From IMG/VR virus record IMGVR_UViG_3300025707_000003, positions 64,001-128,000 of that record: 64,000 bases of DNA; one strand, given 5' to 3'. The translations under genes were made by a program, and so were the position numbers. Source of the DNA: a virus. Lineage: Duplodnaviria > Caudoviricetes. Shown piece by piece: positions 9,479 to 30,480 of this stretch; within the stretch, counting starts at the first letter, position 1; each line of letters opens with the position of its first letter. The notes below the pieces were generated by a model. It was not told where the DNA came from, made no database searches, and worked only from the letters and a program-made list of their open reading frames with translations.

Positions 9479-10198
9479 ATGAGTGGATTTTCAGATTTCA
9501 GTCTCGGTTCTCAGTCCCCAATCCTTTCAGGTGGCAAAGTACGATGGAAGCCTCAAAAGGGTAAATTTCGTGTCACTTTTGCCGCTCTTCCAGGTCTTGA
9601 GGAAGAGGATGTTAAGTTTGAGGATAGCAACGGAGATCCTACTAACCCTTCTTTTAAAGGTGGTCGTAGACTTTACGCAAAAGATGTTGGGTACTTCTTG
9701 GATCATGGGCCAGAGTATCAAAAAATCGCAGGCAACCCTTCAAAGACTTCGATTGCTACTACTTTAATCTTTTGGCCTACAGATGCTAACGGTTCATTAG
9801 ATAAGGCTCGTTTCTCCAATGGTGAGTTTGAGATCAAAACTTGGATCTTCTCACTCGACAAGTATCGTCAACTTGAGTCAATCAACACTGAGTTCCCTTT
9901 GAGTCAACATGACATTTCAATCACTGTGACTGACCCTCAGTTCCATAAGATGACCTTTGCACCCTGTAAAGAGTCTTTGTTCAAGACCTTACATGATAAG
10001 GGATCTGATATGTTCAAGACTTGTATGGAGGCTGTAAAGCCTATCCACGCAAACATCCAGAATGATATCGCTCAAGACCTCACCATTGATCAGATTCGTG
10101 AGAAGATGAGTGGCTCAGTCGGTTCTCCTACAGGCAAGAGTGGTGGTGGATTCAATTCTAGCTTTGACGCAGATGAGATTCTTGACGGTATGCTCTAA
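9479..10198 (+). CDS. Single-stranded DNA-binding protein (putative)
   Basis: Aromatic beta-rich core, Gly/Ser linker and acidic tail FDADEILDGML typical of phage SSBs. Confidence 0.45.
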   Translation: MSGFSDFSLGSQSPILSGGKVRWKPQKGKFRVTFAALPGLEEEDVKFEDSNGDPTNPSFKGGRRLYAKDVGYFLDHGPEYQKIAGNPSKTSIATTLIFWPTDANGSLDKARFSNGEFEIKTWIFSLDKYRQLESINTEFPLSQHDISITVTDPQFHKMTFAPCKESLFKTLHDKGSDMFKTCMEAVKPIHANIQNDIAQDLTIDQIREKMSGSVGSPTGKSGGGFNSSFDADEILDGML

Positions 10199-10200
10199 AG
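10165..10200 (+). repeat. 36-nt direct repeat, copy 1 (3' end of SSB-like gene)
   Basis: tgacgcagatgagattcttgacggtatgctctaaag, identical at 11187-11222. Confidence 0.95.
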
Positions 10201-10382: not shown

Positions 10383-11147
10383 ATGAGAGCAGTACACATC
10401 TACGATTTTGACGGGACTTTATTTAGAACTCCACAAAGACCAAACTGGTATGACAATAACTTGGATGGGGTTTGGCATCAAAACCCATTGAGTTTTGCAG
10501 AACCTTGTCTACCTAAAGGTGAGCGTTGGGTTAAGTCTATTGTTTCAGAAGCTAAGAGAAGCATCGCCTCAAAGGATGTTTACACCATCGTCCTTACAGG
10601 GCGTAAGACACCTTTTCAAAGAGTAGTTGAGGATCTTTTAAGATCAAAAGGATTAAAGTTTGATGAGGTCATCTTGAAAGACAGAGGAGATACTGAGTCT
10701 TTTAAAAACAGAGTAATAGATCGCCTTATGGCACTGTTTCCTGATGCAGAGATCCACATCTGGGAAGATAGACATAATCATTTAAAAGTATTCATGGATC
10801 ACATCGAGATGAGAGGTGGCGTTGGAATCCCTCACGCAGTACCGCAAAACTACTCGGTGGCTGAATGTTCTGAAGAGGAGTTTAGGGATATGAGAAGATC
10901 AGCATCAGAAACTATTAGAAATCTTGAGCATCGCATTGCTCGACTTGAGGGGTCTAGGACAGCTTCAAGCGATGTTCGTAGAGCTGGCAAGAAAGTTATT
11001 GAAGCAATAGACAAGCTACAGGAAGAGCTTGAGAAGATGCCTTCCTTCAACAGTGATGAGTCTTACTATGAGGATTTAAGAGAGCGTTTTGAGGCACTTC
11101 ACCTTAGCGTCCATAAAGAGGTTCAGTTCATCACAGGTGCTTACTAA
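10383..11147 (+). CDS. HAD-superfamily phosphatase (Swiss-Army-Knife RNA-repair-like HAD) with C-terminal leader-tagged module
   Basis: IYDFDGTLFRTP, VLTGRK, IWEDR motifs; internal MRRSASETIRNLEHRIARLE at ATG 10890 with its own RBS. Confidence 0.8.
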   Translation: MRAVHIYDFDGTLFRTPQRPNWYDNNLDGVWHQNPLSFAEPCLPKGERWVKSIVSEAKRSIASKDVYTIVLTGRKTPFQRVVEDLLRSKGLKFDEVILKDRGDTESFKNRVIDRLMALFPDAEIHIWEDRHNHLKVFMDHIEMRGGVGIPHAVPQNYSVAECSEEEFRDMRRSASETIRNLEHRIARLEGSRTASSDVRRAGKKVIEAIDKLQEELEKMPSFNSDESYYEDLRERFEALHLSVHKEVQFITGAY

Positions 11148-11186: not shown

Positions 11187-11222
11187 TGACGCAGATGAGA
11201 TTCTTGACGGTATGCTCTAAAG
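11187..11222 (+). repeat. 36-nt direct repeat, copy 2 (non-coding)
   Basis: Exact copy of 10165-10200. Confidence 0.95.
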
Positions 11223-20261: not shown

Positions 20262-21707
20262 ATGGCATTTTTAAGATATGCTAGGGCTAATGTAGTACAG
20301 CCCTCTATTCATGGTCTACAATGGGATAAAGTTAGAATCGCTTCTGGTGATAAAACCATCAATGCCTCGCTCAAAAAGCAAGCTGAGGATATTCTAGGCG
20401 AACCTTTCACTCCCGATAGATTTCTACTTACACACTCCACAATCGTTTGTTCTGTCGATGCTTTCACGCCTCCTAATACAAAGACAGGCTCGATCACTGA
20501 GGGTGGGCAAACCATTAACCGTAAATATGCTGACTATCGTATAAGTTCAGATACAGATAAGTTCATCAATAACAACCTCGACTCATGGTCAAGGGAAGTG
20601 ATCAAGAAGTCTTATCCGACTTTCATTGGTGCTCATAACTTTGTTGAGCATATCCAAGTAGAAGAACTCTCAAAAGGTCGCATTATAGATGCAGTCCTTA
20701 GAGACATAGGTGAATCTCTATATGTAGACATCCTTGTCGCCACTGATCGTAAGCATGAAGACTTAGTAAAACAGATCGAGTCGGGTCAAATGAACGCAAT
20801 GTCTATGGGATGTAGCGTAGACTTTACCATTTGTACTAAATGTGGTCATGTAGCCGCTGATGAAACAGAGATGTGTTCTCATGTTAAATATGAGAAGGGC
20901 AATGTTTTCTATGATGAGCAAGGAAATCAGCATAGAGTAGCAGAGCTTTGTGGGCATGAAGATATTGGTGGCACAGCAGGTGTTACCTTCATTGAGGCTT
21001 CTTGGGTCGCAACTCCTGCATTTACAGGAGCTGTTGCTCGAAACACATTAGAGATACCCTCTGCTGATATGGCAAAATCTGCTTCGGATGTGGAACTAAA
21101 TGAAGTCCCCGAAAAGTGGATCGCCAAAGCCTCTAGCTTACAAAGTTCTCCTTGGTATGACCCTCATGGTCAACTAACTAAAAAGGCTGGCCCTTTTGAT
21201 ATGGATGAGGATGAAGAAGAAGGTGGAGGCGATGACGCTTCAACCCCTTCAGAGTCTTTGCTCAAACAATTAGAATCTGTGTATGAGACTGCTATTGTAG
21301 ATCGTTTTCGTAAAAAACTAGAGAACGAGATCAAAGCAGAAAAAGCTCAAGAAGTTATGAACCCCCCAATAGATAAATCTGTCGTTGAGCAAAATGATAC
21401 GATTATCAAAGAGGGAGTTTCTGCTTCTAAATATATGAGTCTCTTAGATGCTTCTGTTAAAACAGCTAAAACTGTTGAAGAAGCTGTCTTGAACATTACT
21501 TTGGTAAACAACCATTGTAAAGTTCATGTCCCGACCCATGTTTATAAGTTGGCTAGTGTTCTAGGTACAACAACACAATATAATAGTGTTGTTGATTATC
21601 TTGAGCAAGCCAACTACTTAAACGGTAAAAAATTATCGAAGCAAGACACTCTTCGTCTTGTAAGATTAGCTAAACTGTTATCCCTTAACACTTACGGGCA
21701 GAAATAA
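20262..21707 (+). CDS. Prohead (head maturation) protease with Zn-binding insert
   Basis: HNFVEH, MSMGCSVDFTICTKCG...CSH, FIEASWVATPAF match the HK97/assemblin-type protease pattern; directly upstream of scaffold and capsid genes. Confidence 0.75.
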   Translation: MAFLRYARANVVQPSIHGLQWDKVRIASGDKTINASLKKQAEDILGEPFTPDRFLLTHSTIVCSVDAFTPPNTKTGSITEGGQTINRKYADYRISSDTDKFINNNLDSWSREVIKKSYPTFIGAHNFVEHIQVEELSKGRIIDAVLRDIGESLYVDILVATDRKHEDLVKQIESGQMNAMSMGCSVDFTICTKCGHVAADETEMCSHVKYEKGNVFYDEQGNQHRVAELCGHEDIGGTAGVTFIEASWVATPAFTGAVARNTLEIPSADMAKSASDVELNEVPEKWIAKASSLQSSPWYDPHGQLTKKAGPFDMDEDEEEGGGDDASTPSESLLKQLESVYETAIVDRFRKKLENEIKAEKAQEVMNPPIDKSVVEQNDTIIKEGVSASKYMSLLDASVKTAKTVEEAVLNITLVNNHCKVHVPTHVYKLASVLGTTTQYNSVVDYLEQANYLNGKKLSKQDTLRLVRLAKLLSLNTYGQK

Positions 21708-21743: not shown

Positions 21744-23321
21744 ATGTCTAGGTATTCTCGTTCTAAGAATATGTCACGCAGGGCAGAACTTGCTCGTAGA
21801 AGAAATCGCAGAGCAAACTCTGCCCTTCCAGGTTCTGATAACCTCGGTTGGGATCACTTCGGTCATCCTGCCTCCTCTGATCAACCCGATGTTGACGCTT
21901 ATGGACTCGATTCAGAGTTCGGTGAAGGAGTCCGTAAAGGACCCTATCGCTCAGGCCCAGCTCCTGCCTCTGTAGGTTGGACTCCTGAACACCCTGCTTC
22001 TTCTGATGAGACCGCTGAGGATTATGCTCTTACTGATGATCTTCGCCAAGAGAATCTTAAGAAAGCTATGGAGCGTAAAGCGGCAAAGTGTATTCAAATC
22101 GCTGAATCTCGTCTTGGTCGTAGAGCTTCTCAAGTTGAAGTTGAAGATCTTGCACTACGCATGATGGATCTCCCTAATCGTACTGTTAATGCTCGTGTTG
22201 CTCGTCTTGCAGACAATGCTGTACAAGTCGGTACTGACTATGATGATGGTCTTGACTTCACAGGTCCAGGTAATGCAAGTGATGAGATTGAAGCTGATGG
22301 TCACATGGGTCATGGTATGTTCGATGAATATGACATTGACGGTGATGAAATGATCGACATGAGCGAATGGGGTGGTTCAGACTCTGCATTCAACTCTATG
22401 GATACAAACGAAGACGGATTCCTTTCTCGTGATGAAGTCGCTATGGGTCTTGGTGAGTCATTCGCTGATGATATTGAAGCTGATGATGAACTCGCAAACA
22501 TCATGGCTGAACTTGAAGCTGATGACATGGGTATGAATTCAGCAGATCAACTAGCAGAAGAAATCGCTATGCTCAAAGCGGCAAACGCTCGTCTTGCTCG
22601 CAAGGTTCGTAAGCTCGCTGATAATGCTGTACAAGTTGGCACAGACAATCCAGTTGAAGACCCAGAACTACAGATCGACACTTCTCCAGAAAATGAGCCA
22701 TCTGAAGGTCAACCTACTCAGCGTCTTGCTAAGATTGAACGACTCGCAGAAGCTCTTTCTGCTTATATGTCTGATCGTCAAGCAGGAGATGACATGGCTT
22801 CTCTTCTTGCAGAGCTTGAGGCTGATGACTCTCGTGAAATGAACGATTCAAACTTTGGTTACACTGCCGAAGAAACTGTTGAAGCTCATGATATTGAAGC
22901 TCATGAACTTGAAGCTCATGAACTTGAAGCTGATGATATTGAAGCTGATGATATTGAAACTCATATGATGGGTGAAGATGTCATGGGGCTTGATATGAAC
23001 GCTGACGATCTGATGGCTATGGATCCTCGCCTCGCTTCAATCTTTACTGCATCTGATGAAGAAGATTCTGATGAAGAAGATTCTAGCGAAGAAGATTCTA
23101 GCGAAGAAGATTCTAGCGAAGAAGAAAAGACTGAAGAAGATTCTGAAGAAGAAAAGACTGAGGAAAAGGCTAAGAAGAAAGCTTCTTATCGCCCACGCAC
23201 CTCAGCTCGTAAATCGGCAGTTAAGACTCTTGGGAACATTTCTCGTGAGGCTTCAAGAGGTTCAGACGAACTTTCTAAACTTTGGGAATCTGCTCCCGAT
23301 GTAAGCAAGTTCTTCGGATAA
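21744..23321 (+). CDS. Scaffold protein (probable), acidic, with EF-hand pair and internal repeats
   Basis: Position between protease and capsid genes; D/E-rich; repeats LADNAVQVGTD x2, AH(D/E)(I/L)E, EEDSS; DIDGDEMIDMSE and DTNEDGFLSRDE loops. Confidence 0.7.
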   Translation: MSRYSRSKNMSRRAELARRRNRRANSALPGSDNLGWDHFGHPASSDQPDVDAYGLDSEFGEGVRKGPYRSGPAPASVGWTPEHPASSDETAEDYALTDDLRQENLKKAMERKAAKCIQIAESRLGRRASQVEVEDLALRMMDLPNRTVNARVARLADNAVQVGTDYDDGLDFTGPGNASDEIEADGHMGHGMFDEYDIDGDEMIDMSEWGGSDSAFNSMDTNEDGFLSRDEVAMGLGESFADDIEADDELANIMAELEADDMGMNSADQLAEEIAMLKAANARLARKVRKLADNAVQVGTDNPVEDPELQIDTSPENEPSEGQPTQRLAKIERLAEALSAYMSDRQAGDDMASLLAELEADDSREMNDSNFGYTAEETVEAHDIEAHELEAHELEADDIEADDIETHMMGEDVMGLDMNADDLMAMDPRLASIFTASDEEDSDEEDSSEEDSSEEDSSEEEKTEEDSEEEKTEEKAKKKASYRPRTSARKSAVKTLGNISREASRGSDELSKLWESAPDVSKFFG

Positions 23322-24073: not shown

Positions 24074-24952
24074 ATGAGTAATACAGTTGATAATGCCGTA
24101 AAACAGAAGATCATTTCTGACTACATTAAGACTCCTCAAGGTCGTGCGAAGCTCGCCGCTTCAATGACTCAACCTTTACGCCTTCGTAGAGATTACACCT
24201 CTGTTGGTCGCAAGACTTTCTTAGTCGAGCAACTTCCAGACGGTGCTTTACCTATCTACGACAAAGACCCAGATGTTACTGCATTTGTGGTTGGTGAAGA
24301 GGGTGAAAACATTCTTGCAATCACCAAACCTCGTAGGGTTATCTTCCCTCTTTTCGAGATTGCTTCAAATCCTGAGATTCCTTTGACTCAAATCAAAGAG
24401 CGTAGATTTGACCTTATCGAGAGGGCACAAGATTTAGCTCGTGCTCAAATCCAAGCGGCTGAAGACGAGCGTGTATTCGCTATTCTTGACGCAGTTGCGG
24501 CAAACGGATTTGATTCAGTTGCAGGTCAAACTAACGCTGACCTTCCTGTTATCGCTCCTCTTAATGGTGCTGTTCTTGCTGACGCATTTAGCCTCATTGA
24601 GCGTCACGACCTTCGTGTTGCCCGTATCTTCATGAATGCTCGTGATTATGCTGACATCCGTAAGTTCGGTAGAGATATCCTCGACATCGAGAGCCAAGCG
24701 GCACTTCTCAAGACTGGTCTTCAGGCTACTCTTTGGGGTGCTCAGATCATCACTAGCCGTCTTGTTCCTGTTGGAACTGTTTATGTCTGCTGTGAGCCAG
24801 AAATGTTCGGTCGTATCCCTGTTCGTACAGAATTGACCGTTCTCTCTGCTGACGATCCAAAAGCTCGTACAATTGGTTTTTCAGTGTTCGAGAATTTGGG
24901 TATTGGTGCCTACAACCCTCGTGGTCTTGCTCGTCTTACAGTACAGCGTTAA
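24074..24952 (+). CDS. Major capsid protein (HK97 fold)
   Basis: 292 aa, strong codon bias, IKERRFDLIERAQDLARAQIQAAEDERVF spine helix, followed by strong terminator. Confidence 0.8.
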   Translation: MSNTVDNAVKQKIISDYIKTPQGRAKLAASMTQPLRLRRDYTSVGRKTFLVEQLPDGALPIYDKDPDVTAFVVGEEGENILAITKPRRVIFPLFEIASNPEIPLTQIKERRFDLIERAQDLARAQIQAAEDERVFAILDAVAANGFDSVAGQTNADLPVIAPLNGAVLADAFSLIERHDLRVARIFMNARDYADIRKFGRDILDIESQAALLKTGLQATLWGAQIITSRLVPVGTVYVCCEPEMFGRIPVRTELTVLSADDPKARTIGFSVFENLGIGAYNPRGLARLTVQR

Positions 24953-25011
24953 TATCTAGTATATTCGCTTTACTTTCGCCTACTTAGGTAGGTGTAAGAG
25001 GTCATAGAAAG

Positions 25012-25043
25012 AACCTCATCTTCTTCGGAAGGTGGGGTTTTTT
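25012..25043 (+). terminator. Rho-independent terminator after MCP
   Basis: aacctcatcttc-TTCG-gaaggtggggtt-TTTT. Confidence 0.85.
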
Positions 25044-25093
25044 CGTATCTAGGGTTCTTTTCTTTGGCTTAACTCACTCTCCTATGGTACAAG

Positions 25094-25105
25094 TCTTACA
25101 CTCTT
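25094..25105 (+). promoter_or_regulatory. Anti-RBS arm (tcttacactctt)
   Basis: Perfect reverse complement of 25607-25618 and near-perfect of the RBS region of the 25136 gene. Confidence 0.5.
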
Positions 25106-25135
25106 AAACACTAAGAACCACATAAGGAGTGTAAG

Positions 25136-25621
25136 ATGAACAACAATTTTGTTCCAGTTCCCACAGTAATGGAAGCCATGACAGGTTTCCTCTGTAGTAA
25201 GGCTTTTCTTATCTATCTAATTATATTTGGTGTTCTATTTTTTATATGGCTTTTTATCAAAAAAGAGAGGAGAGAAGAAGCTGATCTCTATCGAGCATTA
25301 GTGAGAGAAGTGAGAGAAAACCAAAATCTTAAGCGAAGACTAGGACAGACACCAAATGAAGAGCAAGATGATATGTACTCCAACGAGGTACTCACCTCGT
25401 CATATGATTTATGCGAATCATATACCAAAGATATCAAATGGAGAAACGCAGGTCTCAGACATGATATAAAAATACTAAACATCGAGGATAAAGAGACACT
25501 ATTGAAAGCGAAGGCTCTACTTTTGTACTTAACTACCTCGGAGAAACAAACCCCACAATTTATTGAGGGTGTTCAGAAAACGCTCAAGGTTATTACGATC
25601 CTAGAAAAGAGTGTAAGATGA
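25136..25621 (+). CDS. Membrane-anchored hypothetical protein
   Basis: N-terminal TM FLIYLIIFGVLFFIWLFI. Confidence 0.65.
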   Translation: MNNNFVPVPTVMEAMTGFLCSKAFLIYLIIFGVLFFIWLFIKKERREEADLYRALVREVRENQNLKRRLGQTPNEEQDDMYSNEVLTSSYDLCESYTKDIKWRNAGLRHDIKILNIEDKETLLKAKALLLYLTTSEKQTPQFIEGVQKTLKVITILEKSVR

Positions 25622-26529
25622 GAGCGATACCATGCCCTATATCTAAAGAGCGTTTTGAAGACCTCTATACTAAACAATACTTAACAGAGAAGCAGATTAA
25701 CGAGTTGTTGATTTCTGAGGGTATTGACTCAAGCATGAAGCGTATTGGTAGTTGGAGACTACGCTATGGGATTGAAACGGTATCTAAGTTTGATCGTCTT
25801 GAGCTACCAAAGATTGAGGGGGAGTTAAGATCAATCCTTATTGGTTCTATGCTAGGTGACGGTCGTATTGTTTTTCGTACTAACGCTTCACACTATGAGG
25901 AACGACACGCACCCAATCAGAAAGAGTATCTTGAGTGGAAGCAAGAGAAGTGGGGCGTGTGGTCATCTGGAGATTTAGCAGTAGCGATGAGTAGGGAGTT
26001 CCCTAGTTATATCTTTCGCACCCACGCTCACCCTATGCTAAATGAGTATCGAGACTTGTTCTATGAGGAGAGGGATAAGGGGTGGAAAGTTGTTAAGTCT
26101 GATGTTATAGACCAAGTAGATGAGTTAGCTTTGGCTATGTGGTATCTCGATGATGGTCATGCAGGACATTGGCCTATGATTTGTTTTGGGGCAAAACAGG
26201 GGAGTCGAGCTAACGCTTACTTAATCTTTGAGAAGTTTGGTTTAGCCCCTAACTGGACACATAAAAAAGGGGAGACAGGAGAGTTCCACTTTAAGGGTGA
26301 GAACGCTTATCGTTTCATTGAGATCATTAAGCCTCATGTACCCGATTGTATGTCTTACAAGTTGGACTTTGGTTTTCAAGGTCGTAACAATGCTATCAAG
26401 AAAAAGATGGACAAAGGCATCTTAGAGGACTTAAGGAGTAAGGGGTGGGGTAAGCGTAGGATAGCTAGGTATCTTGATGTAGGGGCGAGTACAGTGGGTC
26501 GTTGGATGGTTAAGTTTGGAGTGGAGTGA
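25618..26529 (+). mobile_element. Free-standing LAGLIDADG homing endonuclease with terminal HTH
   Basis: ILIGSMLGDG and ALAMWYLDDG motifs. Confidence 0.85.
26474..26529 (+). repeat. Endonuclease 3'-end repeat, copy A
   Basis: 56 nt, 3 mismatches to 26942-26997; 34-nt core identical at 27583-27616. Confidence 0.95.
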
Positions 26530-26538
26530 GGACTTTGA

Positions 26539-26550
26539 TAGTTTATTTAT
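26539..26550 (+). promoter_or_regulatory. Class I motif plus cassette module
   Basis: Exact consensus. Confidence 0.75.
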
Positions 26551-26600
26551 AATAGATCTTAAGTGATCTCTTTAACCAAGAATCCAAATGGAGAAACATT

Positions 26601-26915
26601 ATGCGTAGATCAGCATCAGAAATCATCAATAACCTTGAGAATAGGGTTGCACGACTTGAATCAAGTTCTAACCCTCGTCAAGCTAAAGATGCTTATGATA
26701 TTTGGAGAAGGAAAGTAGATCAGTACATCATTAAGGAAATGCGGGTCACTTTTGAATACGAAACAAAAGACGGTGAACACTCCGAAGACTATATAAACAG
26801 TCTTTGGCAAGATGGAGTTAAGCCATCACGAGCCTCCAAAAATATCATGCAGAAATTTCAATGGTTAAAGTCAGCGGGTATGCTAAAGCATCATAAATAT
26901 TATGATGCTATTTGA
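26601..26915 (+). CDS. Leader-tagged hypothetical protein
   Basis: MRRSASEIINNLENRVARLE; full upstream module. Confidence 0.8.
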   Translation: MRRSASEIINNLENRVARLESSSNPRQAKDAYDIWRRKVDQYIIKEMRVTFEYETKDGEHSEDYINSLWQDGVKPSRASKNIMQKFQWLKSAGMLKHHKYYDAI

Positions 26916-26941
26916 ATGGTTATTGAAAGGGATCTAGGGAT

Positions 26942-26997
26942 TTGATGTAGGGGCGAGTACAGTGAGTCGTTGGATGGTTAAGTTTGGGGTGGATTGA
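26942..26997 (+). repeat. Endonuclease 3'-end repeat, copy B
   Basis: ttgatgtaggggcgagtacagtgagtcgttggatggttaagtttggggtggattga. Confidence 0.95.
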
Positions 26998-27001
26998 TTT
27001 G

Positions 27002-27013
27002 TAGTTTATTTAT
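27002..27013 (+). promoter_or_regulatory. Class I motif
   Basis: Exact consensus upstream of OMP-like gene. Confidence 0.75.
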
Positions 27014-27044
27014 TAGTGTCTATTATCCATAAAGGAGAGACACC

Positions 27045-27575
27045 ATGAGACTTACTATCGCTTTACTCTTATCTGTCTTGCTCACCTCTACGATTTCTCA
27101 CGCTGAAGAGAATAACTGGGAAGTGAGTCTAGGCACAACGCAAATGTTCATCGGTGGGTACGAAGAGGGTTCAATACCTGTACCTACGAACTCTGCCACA
27201 TTCATCTTATCTCGTAAGATGTATGAGAGCTTTGCATTATGGGTTGTGTTCAATCTACCTACCTCCTCTAACAAAAGGTTTACAGAGGAAGGTTTACTTG
27301 TAGAGTCTCAGACACCACCTAGTCTTATGCTAGGTGCGAGTTATGAGTTATTGGGCTATGAGATCTCCGACAAGAAATCTTTAGGTCTTGATGTTGGTGC
27401 TTCAGTCGGACACACGATTACGCTTAATGGTCAGTTCTTCCCTGTGGGTGCGTTTCGTTTGAAGTTCGTTAAAGACGAGGACAGCACTATGTATGCAGGG
27501 GTGACAACCTCACCATATAATCCAGATGGTGATTTGGTTTGGGGTTTGATCTATGGCATGGGGTATAGATTTTAA
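27045..27575 (+). CDS. Outer-membrane beta-barrel-like secreted protein
   Basis: Signal peptide ending SHA|EE, alternating beta strands, C-terminal beta-signal YGMGYRF. Confidence 0.6.
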   Translation: MRLTIALLLSVLLTSTISHAEENNWEVSLGTTQMFIGGYEEGSIPVPTNSATFILSRKMYESFALWVVFNLPTSSNKRFTEEGLLVESQTPPSLMLGASYELLGYEISDKKSLGLDVGASVGHTITLNGQFFPVGAFRLKFVKDEDSTMYAGVTTSPYNPDGDLVWGLIYGMGYRF

Positions 27576-27582
27576 TGTGAGT

Positions 27583-27616
27583 GCGAGTACAGTGGGTCGT
27601 TGGATGGTTAAGTTTG
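27583..27616 (+). repeat. Endonuclease 3'-end repeat, copy C
   Basis: gcgagtacagtgggtcgttggatggttaagtttg identical to 26485-26518. Confidence 0.95.
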
Positions 27617-27624
27617 AGGTTTTG

Positions 27625-27636
27625 TAGTTTCTTTAT
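27625..27636 (+). promoter_or_regulatory. Class I variant plus cassette module
   Basis: TAGTTTCTTTAT. Confidence 0.7.
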
Positions 27637-27684
27637 AATAGATCTTAAGTGATCTCTTTAACCTTAATCAAATGGAGAACCATT

Positions 27685-28164
27685 ATGAGAAGATCTGCAT
27701 CAGAAATCATTAATAACCTTGAGACTCGTATCGCAAGACTTGAAAGACAAGCATATCACCCTGATGACCCACGATCACAAGAGATGGGTGGTTATAGAGA
27801 GCCTGCGGGGGGAGAGTGGCATGAGCCTGAGATTCTTACTGGAAAAAAGTTTCTCAGGTGGTTACAAAATGATCGGGAGATCAAATCCCATTTAAATAAG
27901 AGCGTGTTTATAGATGTTTCTTCATCTACTATCACCTTTGACACATCTTGGTGGTCAAAATATACAAGAAATGGTAATACCTTGGATGGGATTCTATACA
28001 GCATTTGGGACAATCCTATGTTGGGGCGGGATTGGAAGATAAGAGGGAGAAATGTGACTATCAAGGGTTTGTGGGGAGACCTTGTGTACGGGGAGGGTGA
28101 TATTTATGCACAAGAAACCTTTACCATCAAGAAGAGTCGTGGTTCTATCGTTTTAAAGGCATAG
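27685..28164 (+). CDS. Leader-tagged hypothetical protein
   Basis: MRRSASEIINNLETRIARLE; full upstream module. Confidence 0.8.
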   Translation: MRRSASEIINNLETRIARLERQAYHPDDPRSQEMGGYREPAGGEWHEPEILTGKKFLRWLQNDREIKSHLNKSVFIDVSSSTITFDTSWWSKYTRNGNTLDGILYSIWDNPMLGRDWKIRGRNVTIKGLWGDLVYGEGDIYAQETFTIKKSRGSIVLKA

Positions 28165-28295
28165 TCTATCTGTGGCCTTAATTAAGTTATCATCTCTGAT
28201 GATGTTTTAAACAAAGATGAGAGACAAAAGGTTTACACTTAGCCACAAGTGGGGAGTTTTTGTTCCTAGTGGAAGATAGATTTGAATAAGTTTAA

Positions 28296-28307
28296 TAGTT
28301 TGTTTAT
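28296..28307 (+). promoter_or_regulatory. Class I variant
   Basis: TAGTTTGTTTAT upstream of lipoprotein. Confidence 0.7.
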
Positions 28308-28349
28308 ATACCTTTTCTTGAACACACTTAACAAAGAAGGATATTCATT

Positions 28350-28715
28350 ATGAGAAACTTACTCACAATCGCACTTATTGCTCTTACCTTTATTGCTTGC
28401 GACAAGGATAAAGAAGAAACCACACCTAACGATGGTGGTATGGAAGCTGGGGCTACCGCAGGATCAGAGGCAGGATCTGAAGCAGGAACTGAAGCAGGGT
28501 CTGATGCAGGAACTGAAGCAGGGACAGAAATGGACATGATGGTTATGGGTGGTTCTGAAGAGACTACAGACATGGAAATTACTGAAGGTGGTACTGAGTC
28601 TGATATGGGTATGGACGAAGCGGGTATGGAATCTACGGACATGGAAGTAGTTGAGGGTGGTTCAGATGAATCTACGGATATGGGATCTGATACCGAAGCT
28701 GGAACTGAGGGCTAG
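28350..28715 (+). CDS. Acidic low-complexity lipoprotein
   Basis: Lipobox FIA|C; AG(S/T)E repeats and TDM repeats. Confidence 0.7.
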   Translation: MRNLLTIALIALTFIACDKDKEETTPNDGGMEAGATAGSEAGSEAGTEAGSDAGTEAGTEMDMMVMGGSEETTDMEITEGGTESDMGMDEAGMESTDMEVVEGGSDESTDMGSDTEAGTEG

Positions 28716-28755
28716 TAGTCTTGCTCGTCTAAATGGTCTTTAAGATCTTAGAATG

Positions 28756-28787
28756 AACCTCATTTCCCTTTGGGATTTGGGGTTTTT
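28756..28787 (+). terminator. Terminator-like hairpin related to the MCP terminator
   Basis: aacctcatttccc-ttt-gggatttggggtt-ttt. Confidence 0.55.
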
Positions 28788-28794
28788 CCGTTTA

Positions 28795-28806
28795 TAGTTT
28801 GTTTAT
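28795..28806 (+). promoter_or_regulatory. Class I variant plus cassette module
   Basis: TAGTTTGTTTAT. Confidence 0.7.
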
Positions 28807-28856
28807 AAGTGATCTTAAGTGATCTCATTAACCTTAAACAAAATGGAGAAACCATT

Positions 28857-29291
28857 ATGAGAAGATCAGCATCAGAAATTATTAGAGGACTTGAGAATAG
28901 GGTTGCACGACTTGAAAGACAATCCTCAACCAACCGTAGGGCTAGAAAGTACGGGAAAGCGATCACAGACGCTGTTCGGATGCTTAAGAAAGAGGTGGGC
29001 GATGCAGATGCGTCTGAGATTGAAGTGGTGGTGGTAGAGCTAGTCCATTATAAATTTGAGGATCTGCTTAGAGAGATCGAGGACAGAGGTCCTAATGCTG
29101 AAGAGTACTATGAAAATGAAGTTGTAAATAAGTACCCAGCACTGGTCAAAGCAGGTATTCTATCCGCTGAAATATGGATACAACATCCCAAAATAATCCG
29201 AGACCGATACAGGTTGAAAAACTTAAAGGAAGTTAATCTCTTCGCTGAGTGCATTGGGTCAAGAAAATTGGCTGAGGGGCTCAGTTTCTGA
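28857..29291 (+). CDS. Leader-tagged hypothetical protein
   Basis: MRRSASEIIRGLENRVARLE; full upstream module. Confidence 0.8.
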   Translation: MRRSASEIIRGLENRVARLERQSSTNRRARKYGKAITDAVRMLKKEVGDADASEIEVVVVELVHYKFEDLLREIEDRGPNAEEYYENEVVNKYPALVKAGILSAEIWIQHPKIIRDRYRLKNLKEVNLFAECIGSRKLAEGLSF

Positions 29292-29358
29292 TCCCTATTT
29301 AATCTTACAAGATGGGGTCTAAGTTAAGGGATAAGATGCTGTTTGGGGTAGAGTGAGG

Positions 29359-30480
29359 TTAATGGTCGATCCCTTGTTCACATAAAGGACAAGTATCTCC
29401 AATCTCGCACCTAATAGTATCAAGCTCCTCTGTGAGCCTTTCTACCTCTTGTTCGGTGCAAGATATACGACTGAATAGATCAAAGCGTTCAGAAGCGATT
29501 CTGAGGTCTTTTTCGACTTGCGAATCTACATTAGGTAAGTCTACATTAAGTTGTGTGATTTGTAAGATGGTTTGATCTAATTGATTTCTTTTGTGCAAGA
29601 CCCGCTCAAGTGGTGCAGGGTCTTTCACCTCTACATCTGGGATAGGTGGGAATGAGGTTAAGCCAACCTCTACGATACCTTCCATGATCCTTAGTCTGTT
29701 CTTTTCTATACGAACACGCTCAAGGTCTTTAATCCCCATAAAGTCATGTGGGTTCACTTGTGGGAATTTTACATTTTGCAAGGTGGATACGAACTGTGTT
29801 TGAAACATAAAGATTTCTCTCTTTTCTTTGATTGCCCCTAGCTTTTTAACTCTTTCTTCAAGAGTCTTAATCGACCCCTCAAGTGTACTTATATGATTGA
29901 TCGTTTCCCCTACTTCGTCCAACTCGTTAAACTTAGGTAAACGATCCCGCTCAGATACTAAATCTTCATGCTTTACTTTAATGCGTTGATTAAGGTTCTT
30001 AGTTTCGTTCCTAGAGAGACTTGACGCTTTCTCTAGGGCTTCTATTGTCTTTACATCAGATAAAGCACTAGAGAGGACACTAGGTGGCATATCAAGCAAG
30101 AAGATTTGTTCAAACTGTCGAGCGATCTGAGGCCATACAGTTTTTCCATCGACATCTACCGAAACAATGTTCAAGTCATCAAGTTCATCGGGAGTTTTTG
30201 ACCCTACTTTATCTAACTTTTGTCCGTTGATCTCATATTTATTAACCCCTTTACCCTTTTCCCAAATTACCGAGTTGCCATCATCAAAGTTGATGGAGAC
30301 TTTTGATGACTTTTCACCTTGCCTTACATGAGAATATCCCCTTGCATTAGAGAAAGCACCTGCTATGGCTCTTGCACAAGCAGACTTACCTGTATTATTA
30401 GCCCCTGTAATAACAGTAAGACCTTTAACTTCAAAGTCAGCGTGTTTGATAGATTGGTAGTTTTCTATTTTGACTTGCAT
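29359..30480 (-). CDS. SbcC/Rad50 (gp46-like) ATPase, N-terminal half ending at the zinc hook
   Basis: IENYQS, GANNTGKS Walker A, Q-loop, coiled coil, terminal CPLC; no Walker B or signature motif. Confidence 0.8.
   Translation of the reverse strand: MQVKIENYQSIKHADFEVKGLTVITGANNTGKSACARAIAGAFSNARGYSHVRQGEKSSKVSINFDDGNSVIWEKGKGVNKYEINGQKLDKVGSKTPDELDDLNIVSVDVDGKTVWPQIARQFEQIFLLDMPPSVLSSALSDVKTIEALEKASSLSRNETKNLNQRIKVKHEDLVSERDRLPKFNELDEVGETINHISTLEGSIKTLEERVKKLGAIKEKREIFMFQTQFVSTLQNVKFPQVNPHDFMGIKDLERVRIEKNRLRIMEGIVEVGLTSFPPIPDVEVKDPAPLERVLHKRNQLDQTILQITQLNVDLPNVDSQVEKDLRIASERFDLFSRISCTEQEVERLTEELDTIRCEIGDTCPLCEQGIDH

What the first reader, a model, noticed from the sequence alone, without database searches (positions are those of the whole stretch)
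26474..28164. Tandem cassette array, each unit preceded by a copy of the homing-endonuclease 3' end
The last 56 nt of the LAGLIDADG gene recur at 26942-26997 (3 mismatches), and a 34-nt core recurs at 27583-27616 (identical). Each copy sits a few nt upstream of a class I motif and a new gene (leader-tagged 26601, OMP-like 27045, leader-tagged 27685). This repeat-promoter-gene periodicity is what successive single-crossover integration of small circles, or double-strand-break repair at one hotspot, would leave. It resembles an integron-like array, but no integrase is visible and it lies right beside a nuclease.
Basis: partly seen in the sequence, partly recalled or inferred. Interest (0 to 1): 0.8.

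Follow-up and report, generated by a model that had tools for sequence, protein, structure and literature searches.

The report
Orphan homing-endonuclease gene ends between phage cassettes
In a huge marine phage, a fast-changing row of small accessory genes beside the capsid gene carries leftover copies of a homing-endonuclease gene's tail, which mark and probably help the ordinary recombination that adds, removes and reorders these genes; it is not an integron.

Summary
The last 56 nt of an intact LAGLIDADG gene (25618-26529) recur at 26942-26997 (53/56) and 27572-27627 (34-nt core identical), each just upstream of the genome-wide promoter-like motif TAGTTTNTTTAT and a new gene.

Comparison with over 100 related loci shows that the locus between the capsid gene and the ATPase gene is hypervariable.
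- The closest relative, L002, equals the window minus one unit [promoter-A104-repeat]. About 80 nt is present once there and twice here.
- The copies are non-coding orphans of the endonuclease gene's end. They do not fold and they decay in relatives that lack the endonuclease.
- Orphans occur only in the closest sublineage. They travel as the 3' flank of a cassette (A104-repeat, B176-repeat).
- One orphan (L099) arose by a 1.24-kb deletion between two ATCTTGA heptamers.
- Another contig (L107) has the same cassettes in permuted order, with the crossover in a 27-nt identical run inside the shared leader codons.

Best reading: general homologous and microhomology recombination between repeated intergenic modules, as with T4-type PeSL shuffling, with endonuclease-gene fragments as extra portable homology. 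A role for the nuclease itself is untested. No integrase or attC-like feature was found. The scan had flagged this stretch, and a similar array elsewhere in this genome, before. Interest is moderate.

The parts
24074..24952 (+). Major capsid protein gene; conserved left anchor of the variable locus
   Evidence: PHROG major head protein E 1.4e-51. 562 relatives in IMG/VR, the 80 kept at 91-100% identity. 39% identity to Bacillus phage G capsid, 89% to uncultured 485-kb phage LR745208.1.
24990..25060 (+). Capsid-gene terminator hairpin plus spacer (T module)
   Evidence: Fold -28 kcal/mol, z -4.85. The same module recurs before promoters in relatives.
25136..25621 (+). 161-aa membrane-protein gene, overlapping the endonuclease start (ATGA)
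   Evidence: ORF list. Relatives carry either this gene or an unrelated ~105-aa membrane protein in the same coupled position.
25618..26529 (+). Intact free-standing LAGLIDADG homing endonuclease gene with a C-terminal helix-turn-helix; its sequence is a mosaic of two alleles
   Evidence: Pfam LAGLIDADG_2 E 1.1e-19, weak HTH_23/HTH_38 at residues 269-296. Present in 18 of 58 related loci, always 131-660 nt after the capsid gene. Mosaic of L002-like and L011-like segments.
26474..26529 (+). r1: resident copy of the repeat, the last 18 codons plus stop of the endonuclease gene
26535..26660 (+). P_L module 1: promoter-like motif, 5'UTR and first 20 leader codons of A104
   Evidence: 126-nt direct-repeat family with copies at 27619, 28791 and 31029.
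26601..26915 (+). Cassette gene A104 (leader-tagged, no known family)
   Evidence: Absent from L002. Found with the same 3' repeat in L107 and L108.
26916..26941 (+). Junction j between the A104 stop and r2; resembles a worn terminator spacer
   Evidence: Conserved together with A104 and r in L107 and L108. Compared with the L099 junction.
26942..26997 (+). r2: non-coding orphan copy (53/56); differs by 1 nt from the endonuclease gene end of L002
   Evidence: Stop codon upstream in the endonuclease frame and no start codon (read).
27045..27575 (+). Cassette gene B176: signal peptide plus small outer-membrane beta-barrel (Ail/OmpX/OmpA-TM-like)
   Evidence: AlphaFold model pLDDT 76.6. Foldseek hits to Ail, OmpA TM domain and OmpX, E 2.6e-6 to 1.8e-5.
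27572..27627 (+). r3: older orphan copy; 34-nt core identical to r1, about 10 nt of its tail deleted
   Evidence: Full-length in L002, L101 and L107; reduced to about 20 nt in L005 and L009.
27619..27744 (+). P_L module 2 (before C159)
27685..28164 (+). Cassette gene C159 (leader-tagged, unknown)
28350..28715 (+). Cassette gene D121: lipoprotein-type signal, then an acidic 12-nt-repeat region
   Evidence: A 12-nt insertion variant is seen in run X10.
28735..28800 (+). Terminator hairpin plus promoter motif (T-P module) before E144
   Evidence: Fold -20.2 kcal/mol, z -2.34.
28791..28916 (+). P_L module 3 (before E144); crossover partner in L107
28857..29291 (+). Cassette gene E144 (leader-tagged, unknown)
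29341..29358 (+). Possible fourth, decayed copy of the repeat's last 18 nt (ambiguous)
   Evidence: 16/18 match to the end of r1; 1 of 500 shuffles reached that score. A Logan contig continues this stretch differently.
29359..30480 (-). SMC/Rad50-like AAA ATPase gene; conserved right anchor of the variable locus
   Evidence: Pfam AAA_21/AAA_15/AAA_23. 82-86% identical in relatives, where homology resumes at 29352-29359.

Best explanation
The window comes from a marine, phage-G-related huge phage. Between the capsid gene and an SMC-like ATPase gene lies a hyperplastic locus built of self-contained cassettes: promoter-like motif, 5'UTR, small gene, and often a terminator. A mobile free-standing LAGLIDADG endonuclease gene sits at its left edge. 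The two extra copies of the endonuclease gene's last ~56 nt are dead, non-coding fragments (orphans). Such orphans arise when the endonuclease module is lost by deletion between short direct repeats; this is shown for L099, where the repeats are two ATCTTGA heptamers 1.24 kb apart. Once present, an orphan stays attached to the 3' side of a neighbouring cassette. Inference: being about 60-80 nt of near-identity with the resident endonuclease gene end plus promoter, it then serves as a substrate for the phage's general homologous recombination during co-infection, alongside the promoter-UTR-leader modules and terminators. Unequal exchanges at these repeats add, delete and reorder cassettes. The window itself is an L002-like genome that received [endonuclease 3' half - r1 - promoter - A104 - r2] from another lineage. 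Its left crossover lies inside the endonuclease gene and its right crossover in the repeat. No site-specific recombinase is needed. Breaks made by the endonuclease in genomes that lack it may raise the exchange rate here, but that step is inferred, not shown.
For: 1. Hypervariability: among 80 capsid-anchored loci the content between the capsid and ATPase genes differs widely, and the endonuclease is present in 18 of 58.
2. One-cassette difference: window 25618-26550 and 26934-27722 both align to contiguous L002 4701-6345 at 97-98%. The 81 nt L002 5548-5628 matches both 26470-26550 and 26934-27013, so A104 (26551-26933) is an insertion bracketed by an ~80-nt duplication.
3. The window's endonuclease gene is a mosaic: no mismatch to L002 over the first ~400 columns and only 1 in the first 550, then 17 mismatches in columns 550-700, where it has 1 mismatch to L011.
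4. Orphans travel with cassettes: A104-j-r occurs behind D121 in L107 and before a different gene in L108. B176-r3 occurs in the window, L002, L101 and L107.
5. L107 has the same cassettes in permuted order, with the crossover inside a 27-nt run shared by the A104 and E144 leader codons.
6. Origin by microhomology deletion: L099 equals an L006/L011-type arrangement minus 1240-1249 nt between two ATCTTGA heptamers.
7. The copies look neutral: r3 is eroded to about 20 nt in the endonuclease-less L005 and L009, and has a 10-nt deletion in the window. There is no significant fold (z 0.66, -1.73, -0.61), no ORF, and no extra conservation of this part among endonuclease alleles.
8. Variant bases are shared patchily between r1, r3 and resident gene ends, which indicates gene conversion among copies.
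9. The same signature occurs without a nuclease: a perfect 36-nt copy of the end of ORF 9479-10198 lies behind the next cassette (10165-10200 and 11187-11222), and relatives have one copy.
10. Precedent: PeSL-mediated shuffling in T4-type phages (PMC2839356).
Against: Four orphan types with different left neighbours all begin within about 10 nt of the same point in the endonuclease gene. The microhomology account explains L099 exactly and r2 only after two further small deletions; for r3 and the L003-type orphan it is weak. A specific break point there is not excluded. Recombination was never observed directly, only inferred from end products in metagenome assemblies. L107 could in principle be a chimeric assembly at the 27-nt shared run. 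Orphans were found only in the sublineage with capsid identity of 98.6% or more, so few independent events underlie the picture.
Confidence: 0.65

Rival explanations
1. Nuclease-driven cassette capture. The LAGLIDADG enzyme cuts genomes that lack it near the capsid gene or the promoter spacer. Repair from a co-infecting donor starts at the repeat or promoter modules and stacks new cassettes directly beside the endonuclease gene, newest first, like an integron without an integrase.
For: The array abuts the endonuclease gene. The most recent insertion (A104, absent from L002) is the one nearest to it, and repeat decay increases with distance: r2 95%, r3 80%, a possible r4 remnant. All orphans begin at nearly the same coordinate. 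Homing endonuclease genes are known to lie at boundaries of genetic exchange between phages (PMC10055350).
Against: No cleavage data exist. No sequence position near the capsid gene end separates loci with and without the endonuclease (best discriminator 0.67). Most lineages carrying the endonuclease have no orphan at all. The same duplication signature occurs at 10165/11187 with no nuclease nearby. Cassette permutation in L107 used the leader module, not the repeat.
Confidence: 0.15
2. Repeated homing and decay. Each orphan marks a separate past insertion of the endonuclease module into that intergenic spacer, followed by deletion of most of the gene.
For: L099 shows exactly this kind of decay at the canonical site. 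The orphans resemble different endonuclease alleles: r2 is L002-type, and the L003 remnant is L004-type.
Against: In all 18 related loci where both the capsid gene and the endonuclease gene lie on the fetched stretch, the endonuclease gene sits directly after the capsid gene and never between cassettes. In the other endonuclease-bearing loci it is never seen between cassettes either. A104-j-r moves as a unit between contexts, so copies spread by recombination rather than by new insertions.
Confidence: 0.12
3. The repeat is a functional site in its own right, for example a binding site, an RNA element, or an attC-like recombination site recognised by an unidentified recombinase.
For: Three copies in 1.2 kb, each at a fixed short distance from a promoter-like motif.
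Against: No significant secondary structure. The copies decay by deletion in relatives. The repeat is absent from most cassette junctions and most related genomes. Pattern scans of IMG/VR and JGI metagenomes found it only in this phage lineage, apart from what look like 2 chance hits. No recombinase gene lies in the locus.
Confidence: 0.05
4. Assembly artefact: the repeats or their order were created by the metagenome assembler.
For: r1 and r3 share a 34-nt identical core, which k=31 graphs cannot resolve. Logan contigs break exactly there.
Against: Each copy has its own flanking variants. The same junctions appear in independent assemblies from other samples (L002, L101, L107, L108). Unitigs 26485-26577 and 27583-27663 bridge the copies. 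Depth is flat across the array (10.5, 10.9, 10.9, 10.2 in X1).
Confidence: 0.03

Closest known systems
PeSL (promoter-early stem-loop) regulatory cassettes of T4-type phages (Arbiol et al. 2010, PMC2839356; Comeau et al. 2014, PMC4122927)
   Same: Both have about 100-nt repeated intergenic modules that combine a promoter with a terminator stem-loop and are concentrated in hyperplastic regions full of small orphan genes. In both, close relatives differ by single cassettes bracketed by two modules where the shorter genome has one. In both, homologous recombination between modules is the proposed mechanism.
   Different: The promoter motif here (TAGTTTNTTTAT) is not the sigma-70 consensus. The module often extends into the first 20 codons, a shared N-terminal leader, so crossovers can swap the protein body behind a constant leader. 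Three junctions additionally carry a fragment of a homing endonuclease gene. Mini-circles have not been shown here.
Free-standing homing endonuclease genes of phages and the homing cycle of invasion, decay and loss (T4 seg/mob genes, PMC2988022; HEGs at boundaries of genetic exchange, PMC10055350)
   Same: An intact LAGLIDADG gene sits in an intergenic site next to a highly conserved essential gene. It is sporadically present among close relatives (18 of 58). Its sequence is mosaic, and decayed remnants exist in genomes that lost it.
   Different: Here the remnants of the gene's 3' end have been multiplied within one genome and sit between accessory cassettes, apparently re-used as recombination homology. 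Neither the target site nor activity is known.
Integron cassette arrays (IntI, attI, attC)
   Same: Both are tandem arrays of small, unrelated, single-gene units separated by a recurring sequence. The newest unit appears to lie nearest a fixed element.
   Different: There is no tyrosine recombinase in the locus. The repeat has no attC-like hairpin. Every cassette has its own promoter-like motif. The repeat is missing from most junctions and decays.
T4 internal-protein locus with its capsid targeting sequence
   Same: Unrelated small proteins share a conserved N-terminal peptide, and the locus is polymorphic between relatives. A head maturation protease gene lies nearby (20262-21707).
   Different: The leader sequence is unrelated. 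Packaging or cleavage has not been shown. The tag is spread over at least 8 genes in this window alone.

Membership tests
Integron | Adjacent IntI-type tyrosine recombinase gene | tested here: not met
   Pfam scan of the locus genes and both anchors finds capsid, LAGLIDADG and AAA/SMC families only, with no integrase. The rest of the huge genome was not scanned.
Integron | attC-type imperfect inverted repeat that folds as a hairpin at each cassette end | tested here: not met
   The three repeat copies fold no better than shuffles (z 0.66, -1.73, -0.61). No inverted repeat lies within them.
Integron | Promoterless cassettes read from one common promoter | tested here: not met
   Every cassette is preceded by its own TAGTTTNTTTAT motif (26539, 27002, 27625, 28296, 28795). 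Promoter activity itself was not tested.
Integron | The recombination site is present at every cassette boundary | tested here: not met
   There is no copy at the C159/D121 or D121/E144 junctions, and none in most related arrays.
PeSL-type modular shuffling | Repeated intergenic promoter plus stem-loop modules enriched in the variable region | tested here: met
   The motif occurs 28 times in the window against 2.9 expected. There is a 126-nt module family with 4 copies. Strong hairpins lie directly upstream at 24990-25060 and 28735-28800.
PeSL-type modular shuffling | Insertions and deletions between close relatives are bounded by modules, with one chimeric module in the shorter genome | tested here: met
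   Window versus L002: about 80 nt present twice versus once around A104. L107: crossover inside the module.
PeSL-type modular shuffling | The promoter is a sigma-70-type early promoter | tested here: not met
   The sigma-70 consensus scan finds none at the module positions; only 6 sites in the region against 15.8 expected.
PeSL-type modular shuffling | Excised mini-circles are physically detectable | not testable with these tools
   Only k=31 contigs of public runs were available. No chimeric repeat variant was seen in 4 runs, but contigs drop rare forms.
Free-standing LAGLIDADG homing endonuclease gene | LAGLIDADG endonuclease domain in an intact ORF outside any intron or intein | tested here: met
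   Pfam PF03161 E 1.1e-19 over residues 71-203. PHROG 11023 E 5.6e-19. Two motif-like segments with acidic residues are read from the translation. No solved structure matches by sequence.
Free-standing LAGLIDADG homing endonuclease gene | Sporadic presence at one fixed site among close relatives | tested here: met
   Present in 18 of 58 loci, always 131-660 nt after the capsid gene, scattered across capsid identity classes.
Free-standing LAGLIDADG homing endonuclease gene | Site-specific cleavage of the allele that lacks the gene | not testable with these tools
   A search for positions near the capsid gene end that separate loci with and without the gene gave no clear site.

The most novel reading that the evidence does not exclude
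The endonuclease gene and its orphan ends form a nuclease-anchored gene-capture hotspot. Breaks made by the LAGLIDADG enzyme in co-infecting relatives are repaired from the repeat and promoter modules, so new cargo cassettes are stacked next to the endonuclease gene, newest first. That would be an integron-like acquisition system that needs no integrase.
Probability: 0.12. Interest if true: 0.8.

Novelty: new variant of a known kind. Interest (0 to 1): 0.45.

Why it matters
Huge marine phages carry many small, fast-changing accessory genes, and how these are gained and lost is largely unknown. This locus gives a worked example at near-nucleotide resolution: one cassette gained relative to the closest relative, one block permuted in another sample, one crossover inside a shared leader that swaps the protein body behind a constant tag, and one endonuclease module lost by a 7-nt microhomology deletion. 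It extends the T4-type idea of shuffling by repeated regulatory modules to a phage-G-like lineage. It also shows that dead pieces of a selfish nuclease gene can become extra recombination homology. If the nuclease itself drives the exchanges, this would be a new kind of gene-capture device. The data here do not show that.

Tried and rejected
- blastn of 25000-29400 against the INPHARED phage collection found no match.
- No whole genome is held for this window.
- Exact 34-nt pattern in IMG/VR: 0 hits, because relatives differ by one base. A degenerate pattern found 5 IMG/VR contigs and 9 metagenome loci. L098 and L103 (the same sequence) look like chance hits: no locus gene and no flanking similarity.
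- Searching for A104 in IMG/VR by back-translated peptides found nothing. The protein collection gave 3 short ENA contigs.
- Inferring the endonuclease target: I compared the last 400 nt of the capsid gene plus 110 nt downstream between loci with and without the endonuclease. No discriminating cluster appeared (best 0.67), and the comparison is confounded by relatedness.
- The repeat as a structured RNA or DNA element is rejected: no fold signal.
- The repeat as a coding extension of A104 or B176 is rejected: it is in a different frame with an intervening stop (read).
- Circle or deletion junctions in public runs: only Logan k=31 contigs were available. Joints with short sides (21-41 nt) between promoter modules are uninformative, because about 30 such modules exist per genome. 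No chimeric repeat variant was listed.
- A fourth repeat copy at 29341-29358 stays ambiguous.
- Sequence search of the endonuclease against the PDB gave no hit.
- The protein atlas gave nothing for C159.
- A look-up of look-alike stretches in other genomes of this scan found none.
Full report
**What is there**

The window is phage DNA. ORF 24074-24952 is a major head protein (PHROG E 1.4e-51). It is 89% identical to that of an uncultured 485-kb phage, 47% to Tunturiibacter phage Tunturi_5 and 39% to Bacillus phage G. IMG/VR holds 562 relatives of it; the 80 kept are 91-100% identical and lie on contigs of up to 375 kb. No whole genome is held for the window.

Downstream of the capsid gene, in order:
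- a strong terminator hairpin (24990-25060, z -4.85);
- a 161-aa membrane-protein gene (25136-25621);
- an intact 303-aa LAGLIDADG endonuclease gene, ATGA-coupled to it (25618-26529; Pfam E 1.1e-19);
- five small same-strand genes: A104 (26601), B176 (27045), C159 (27685), D121 (28350) and E144 (28857);
- a convergent SMC-like ATPase gene (29359-30480).

**Check of the observation**

The last 56 nt of the endonuclease gene (r1, 26474-26529) recur at 26942-26997 (r2, 53/56) and 27572-27627 (r3, 80% ungapped, 34-nt core identical). No match occurred in 100 shuffles. Each copy lies 0-9 nt before a TAGTTTNTTTAT motif and a new gene. That motif is genome-wide (28 sites against 2.9 expected), so it is not special to this array.

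A104, C159 and E144 start with the same ~20-residue leader. The leader also heads at least five other genes in the window, on both strands. Earlier notes of this scan describe the same leader across the genome. Promoter motif, 5'UTR and leader codons together form a 126-nt repeated module (P_L) with copies at 26535, 27619, 28791 and 31029.

B176 is a signal-peptide protein that models as a small outer-membrane beta-barrel (pLDDT 76.6) resembling Ail, OmpX and the OmpA transmembrane domain (Foldseek E 2.6e-6 to 1.8e-5). D121 has a lipoprotein-type signal.

**The copies are dead fragments of the endonuclease gene**

The repeat encodes the recognition helix of the enzyme's C-terminal helix-turn-helix. 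That part is retained in alleles only 57-60% identical (full-length tblastn), so the gene is the source of the copies.
- r2 and r3 are non-coding: there is a stop upstream in that frame, no start codon, and the frame differs from the preceding gene.
- They do not fold (z 0.66, -1.73, -0.61), whereas real terminators in the locus do.
- This part of the gene is no better conserved at the DNA level than the rest.

**Comparative evidence**

- The content between the capsid and ATPase genes varies widely among relatives. The endonuclease gene is present in 18 of 58 loci with enough flank, always 131-660 nt after the capsid gene and scattered over capsid identity classes. This is the usual pattern of a mobile homing endonuclease gene with one home site. 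A 28%-identical LAGLIDADG gene also follows the capsid gene in LR745208.1.
- The closest relative, L002 (capsid 100% by tblastn), is endonuclease-r-promoter-B176-r3-promoter-leader gene. Window 25618-26550 and 26934-27722 both align to contiguous L002 sequence at 97-98%. About 80 nt (repeat plus promoter start) occurs once in L002 and twice in the window, around A104.
- The window's endonuclease gene is itself a mosaic. It is identical to L002 over its first ~400 columns. In columns 550-700 it has 1 mismatch to L011, where L002 differs at 17 sites. The simplest history is a single patch from another lineage, with the left crossover inside the endonuclease gene and the right crossover in the repeat.
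- A104 occurs on three ENA contigs. In L107 the order is C159-D121-terminator-P_L-A104-j-r2-promoter-B176-r3, a permutation of the window's order. The crossover lies inside a 27-nt run shared by the E144 and A104 leader codons, so A104's body sits behind E144's leader. In L108, A104-j-r follows a different gene and precedes a different leader gene. The repeat therefore travels as the 3' flank of A104. Likewise, r3 travels with B176 (window, L002, L101, L107).
- In the endonuclease-less L005 and L009, B176 is preceded by a terminator and promoter with no repeat. It is followed by only about 20 nt of r3. In the window, r3 has lost about 10 nt that L002 keeps. The copies erode, as unselected DNA does.
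- L099 has no endonuclease gene but carries a 59-nt orphan right after the capsid terminator. It equals the L006/L011 arrangement minus 1240-1249 nt lying between two ATCTTGA heptamers. One heptamer is in the TTGACC-type promoter that precedes the membrane-protein gene; the other lies 60 nt before the endonuclease stop. This shows how an orphan is born.
- Orphans occur only in the sublineage closest to the window (capsid identity 98.6% or more). None is seen in the lineages with 83% or 57-60% endonuclease alleles.
- Variant bases are shared patchily among r1, r3 and resident gene ends, which indicates conversion between copies.

**Public reads**

Twenty marine or seawater runs hold the stretch, but only as k=31 contigs.
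- In X1 and X7 the contigs break exactly at the 34-nt core and at the P_L modules. Short unitigs bridge them, and depth is flat (10.5, 10.9, 10.9, 10.2 in X1). There is no coverage step.
- X10 also holds a variant that joins the capsid terminator (25056) directly to the B176 promoter (27002).
- X13 holds an L002-like replacement of C159.
- So several arrangements coexist in nature. Circles and rare junctions cannot be judged from contigs.

**Mechanism**

The best-supported account is general homologous and microhomology recombination between repeated intergenic modules during co-infection, as proposed for PeSL cassettes in T4-type phages (PMC2839356). The endonuclease-gene orphans act as an additional 60-80-nt homology.

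A second, nuclease-free example supports this. A perfect 36-nt copy of the end of ORF 9479-10198 lies behind the next cassette (10165-10200 and 11187-11222), while relatives have a single copy.

- Shown: the end products, the crossover intervals and the microhomology deletion.
- Inferred: that the exchanges are catalysed by the phage's general recombination system, and that the orphans actually promote exchange rather than merely mark it.

**What remains odd**

Four orphan types with different left neighbours (r2, r3, L003-type, L099) all begin within about 10 nt of the same point in the endonuclease gene. ATCTTGA microhomology explains L099 exactly. It explains r2 if two small later deletions are allowed. 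It explains r3 and the L003 type only loosely.

There are two further hints. The newest insertion is the one nearest the endonuclease gene, and repeat decay increases with distance from it. Together these facts keep alive a nuclease-stimulated hotspot reading (about 0.12-0.15). My attempt to locate a target site by comparing alleles with and without the gene gave nothing.

**Comparison and verdict**

The array is not an integron: it has no integrase in the locus, no attC-like fold, a promoter motif for every cassette, and the repeat is missing from most junctions.

It works like PeSL shuffling but differs in three ways:
- the promoter is not of sigma-70 type;
- the module reaches into a shared leader, so crossovers can swap the protein body behind a constant leader;
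- selfish-gene fragments have been recruited as homology.

The endonuclease gene meets the sequence and distribution criteria of a free-standing LAGLIDADG homing gene, but its activity is untested.

Overall this is a new variant of a known kind and of moderate interest.

Noticed in passing
window 10165-10200 and 11187-11222: A perfect 36-nt direct repeat. The first copy is the 3' end plus stop of ORF 9479-10198; the second lies 40 nt behind the next cassette gene (10383-11147). Relatives L110 and L111 have one copy. This is the same signature as in the endonuclease array (upstream gene end duplicated behind an inserted cassette), but with no nuclease gene nearby.
   Followed up: partly
window 674(-), 26601, 27685, 28857, 31095, 42107(-), 42793(-), 56690: At least eight otherwise unrelated proteins start with the same ~20-residue leader (consensus M-R/K-R-x-A-S-E-I-I-x-x-L-E-x-R-I/V-A-R-L-E). 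A head maturation protease gene lies at 20262-21707. In L107 a crossover inside the leader codons put A104's body behind E144's leader.
   Followed up: partly
window 25618-26529: The endonuclease gene is a mosaic of two alleles: L002-like in its 5' part and L011-like in alignment columns 550-700. In all relatives, homology begins exactly at its ATG. The upstream coupled membrane-protein gene comes in two unrelated versions (161 aa here and in L042; about 105 aa elsewhere).
   Followed up: partly
window 27045-27575: B176 is a phage-encoded small outer-membrane beta-barrel (Ail/OmpX/OmpA-TM-like fold), conserved at 51-100% identity in many relatives. This implies a Gram-negative host and possibly surface remodelling or superinfection exclusion.
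   Followed up: partly
window 28443-28526: D121 contains 12-nt tandem repeats encoding an acidic Gly/Ser/Thr-rich stretch. Run X10 shows a 12-nt insertion variant at 28500.
   Followed up: no
window 29301-29359: In contigs of two runs (X1, X10) this spacer behind E144 continues with 10 other letters and then a P_L module, instead of the ATPase gene. It also holds an 18-nt match (16/18) to the end of the repeat. Its origin is unresolved.
   Followed up: partly
window 22258-23177: ORF 21744-23321 (525 aa, no family hit), between the protease and capsid genes, carries two arrays of 15-nt tandem repeats encoding highly acidic segments. It may be a scaffold-like protein.
   Followed up: no
L006 12290-12330; L099 150-185: In L006 and L099 the endonuclease module is followed by a second copy of the 3' half of the capsid terminator plus spacer (about 21 nt). 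The module is thus bracketed by a short direct repeat of its insertion site.
   Followed up: no
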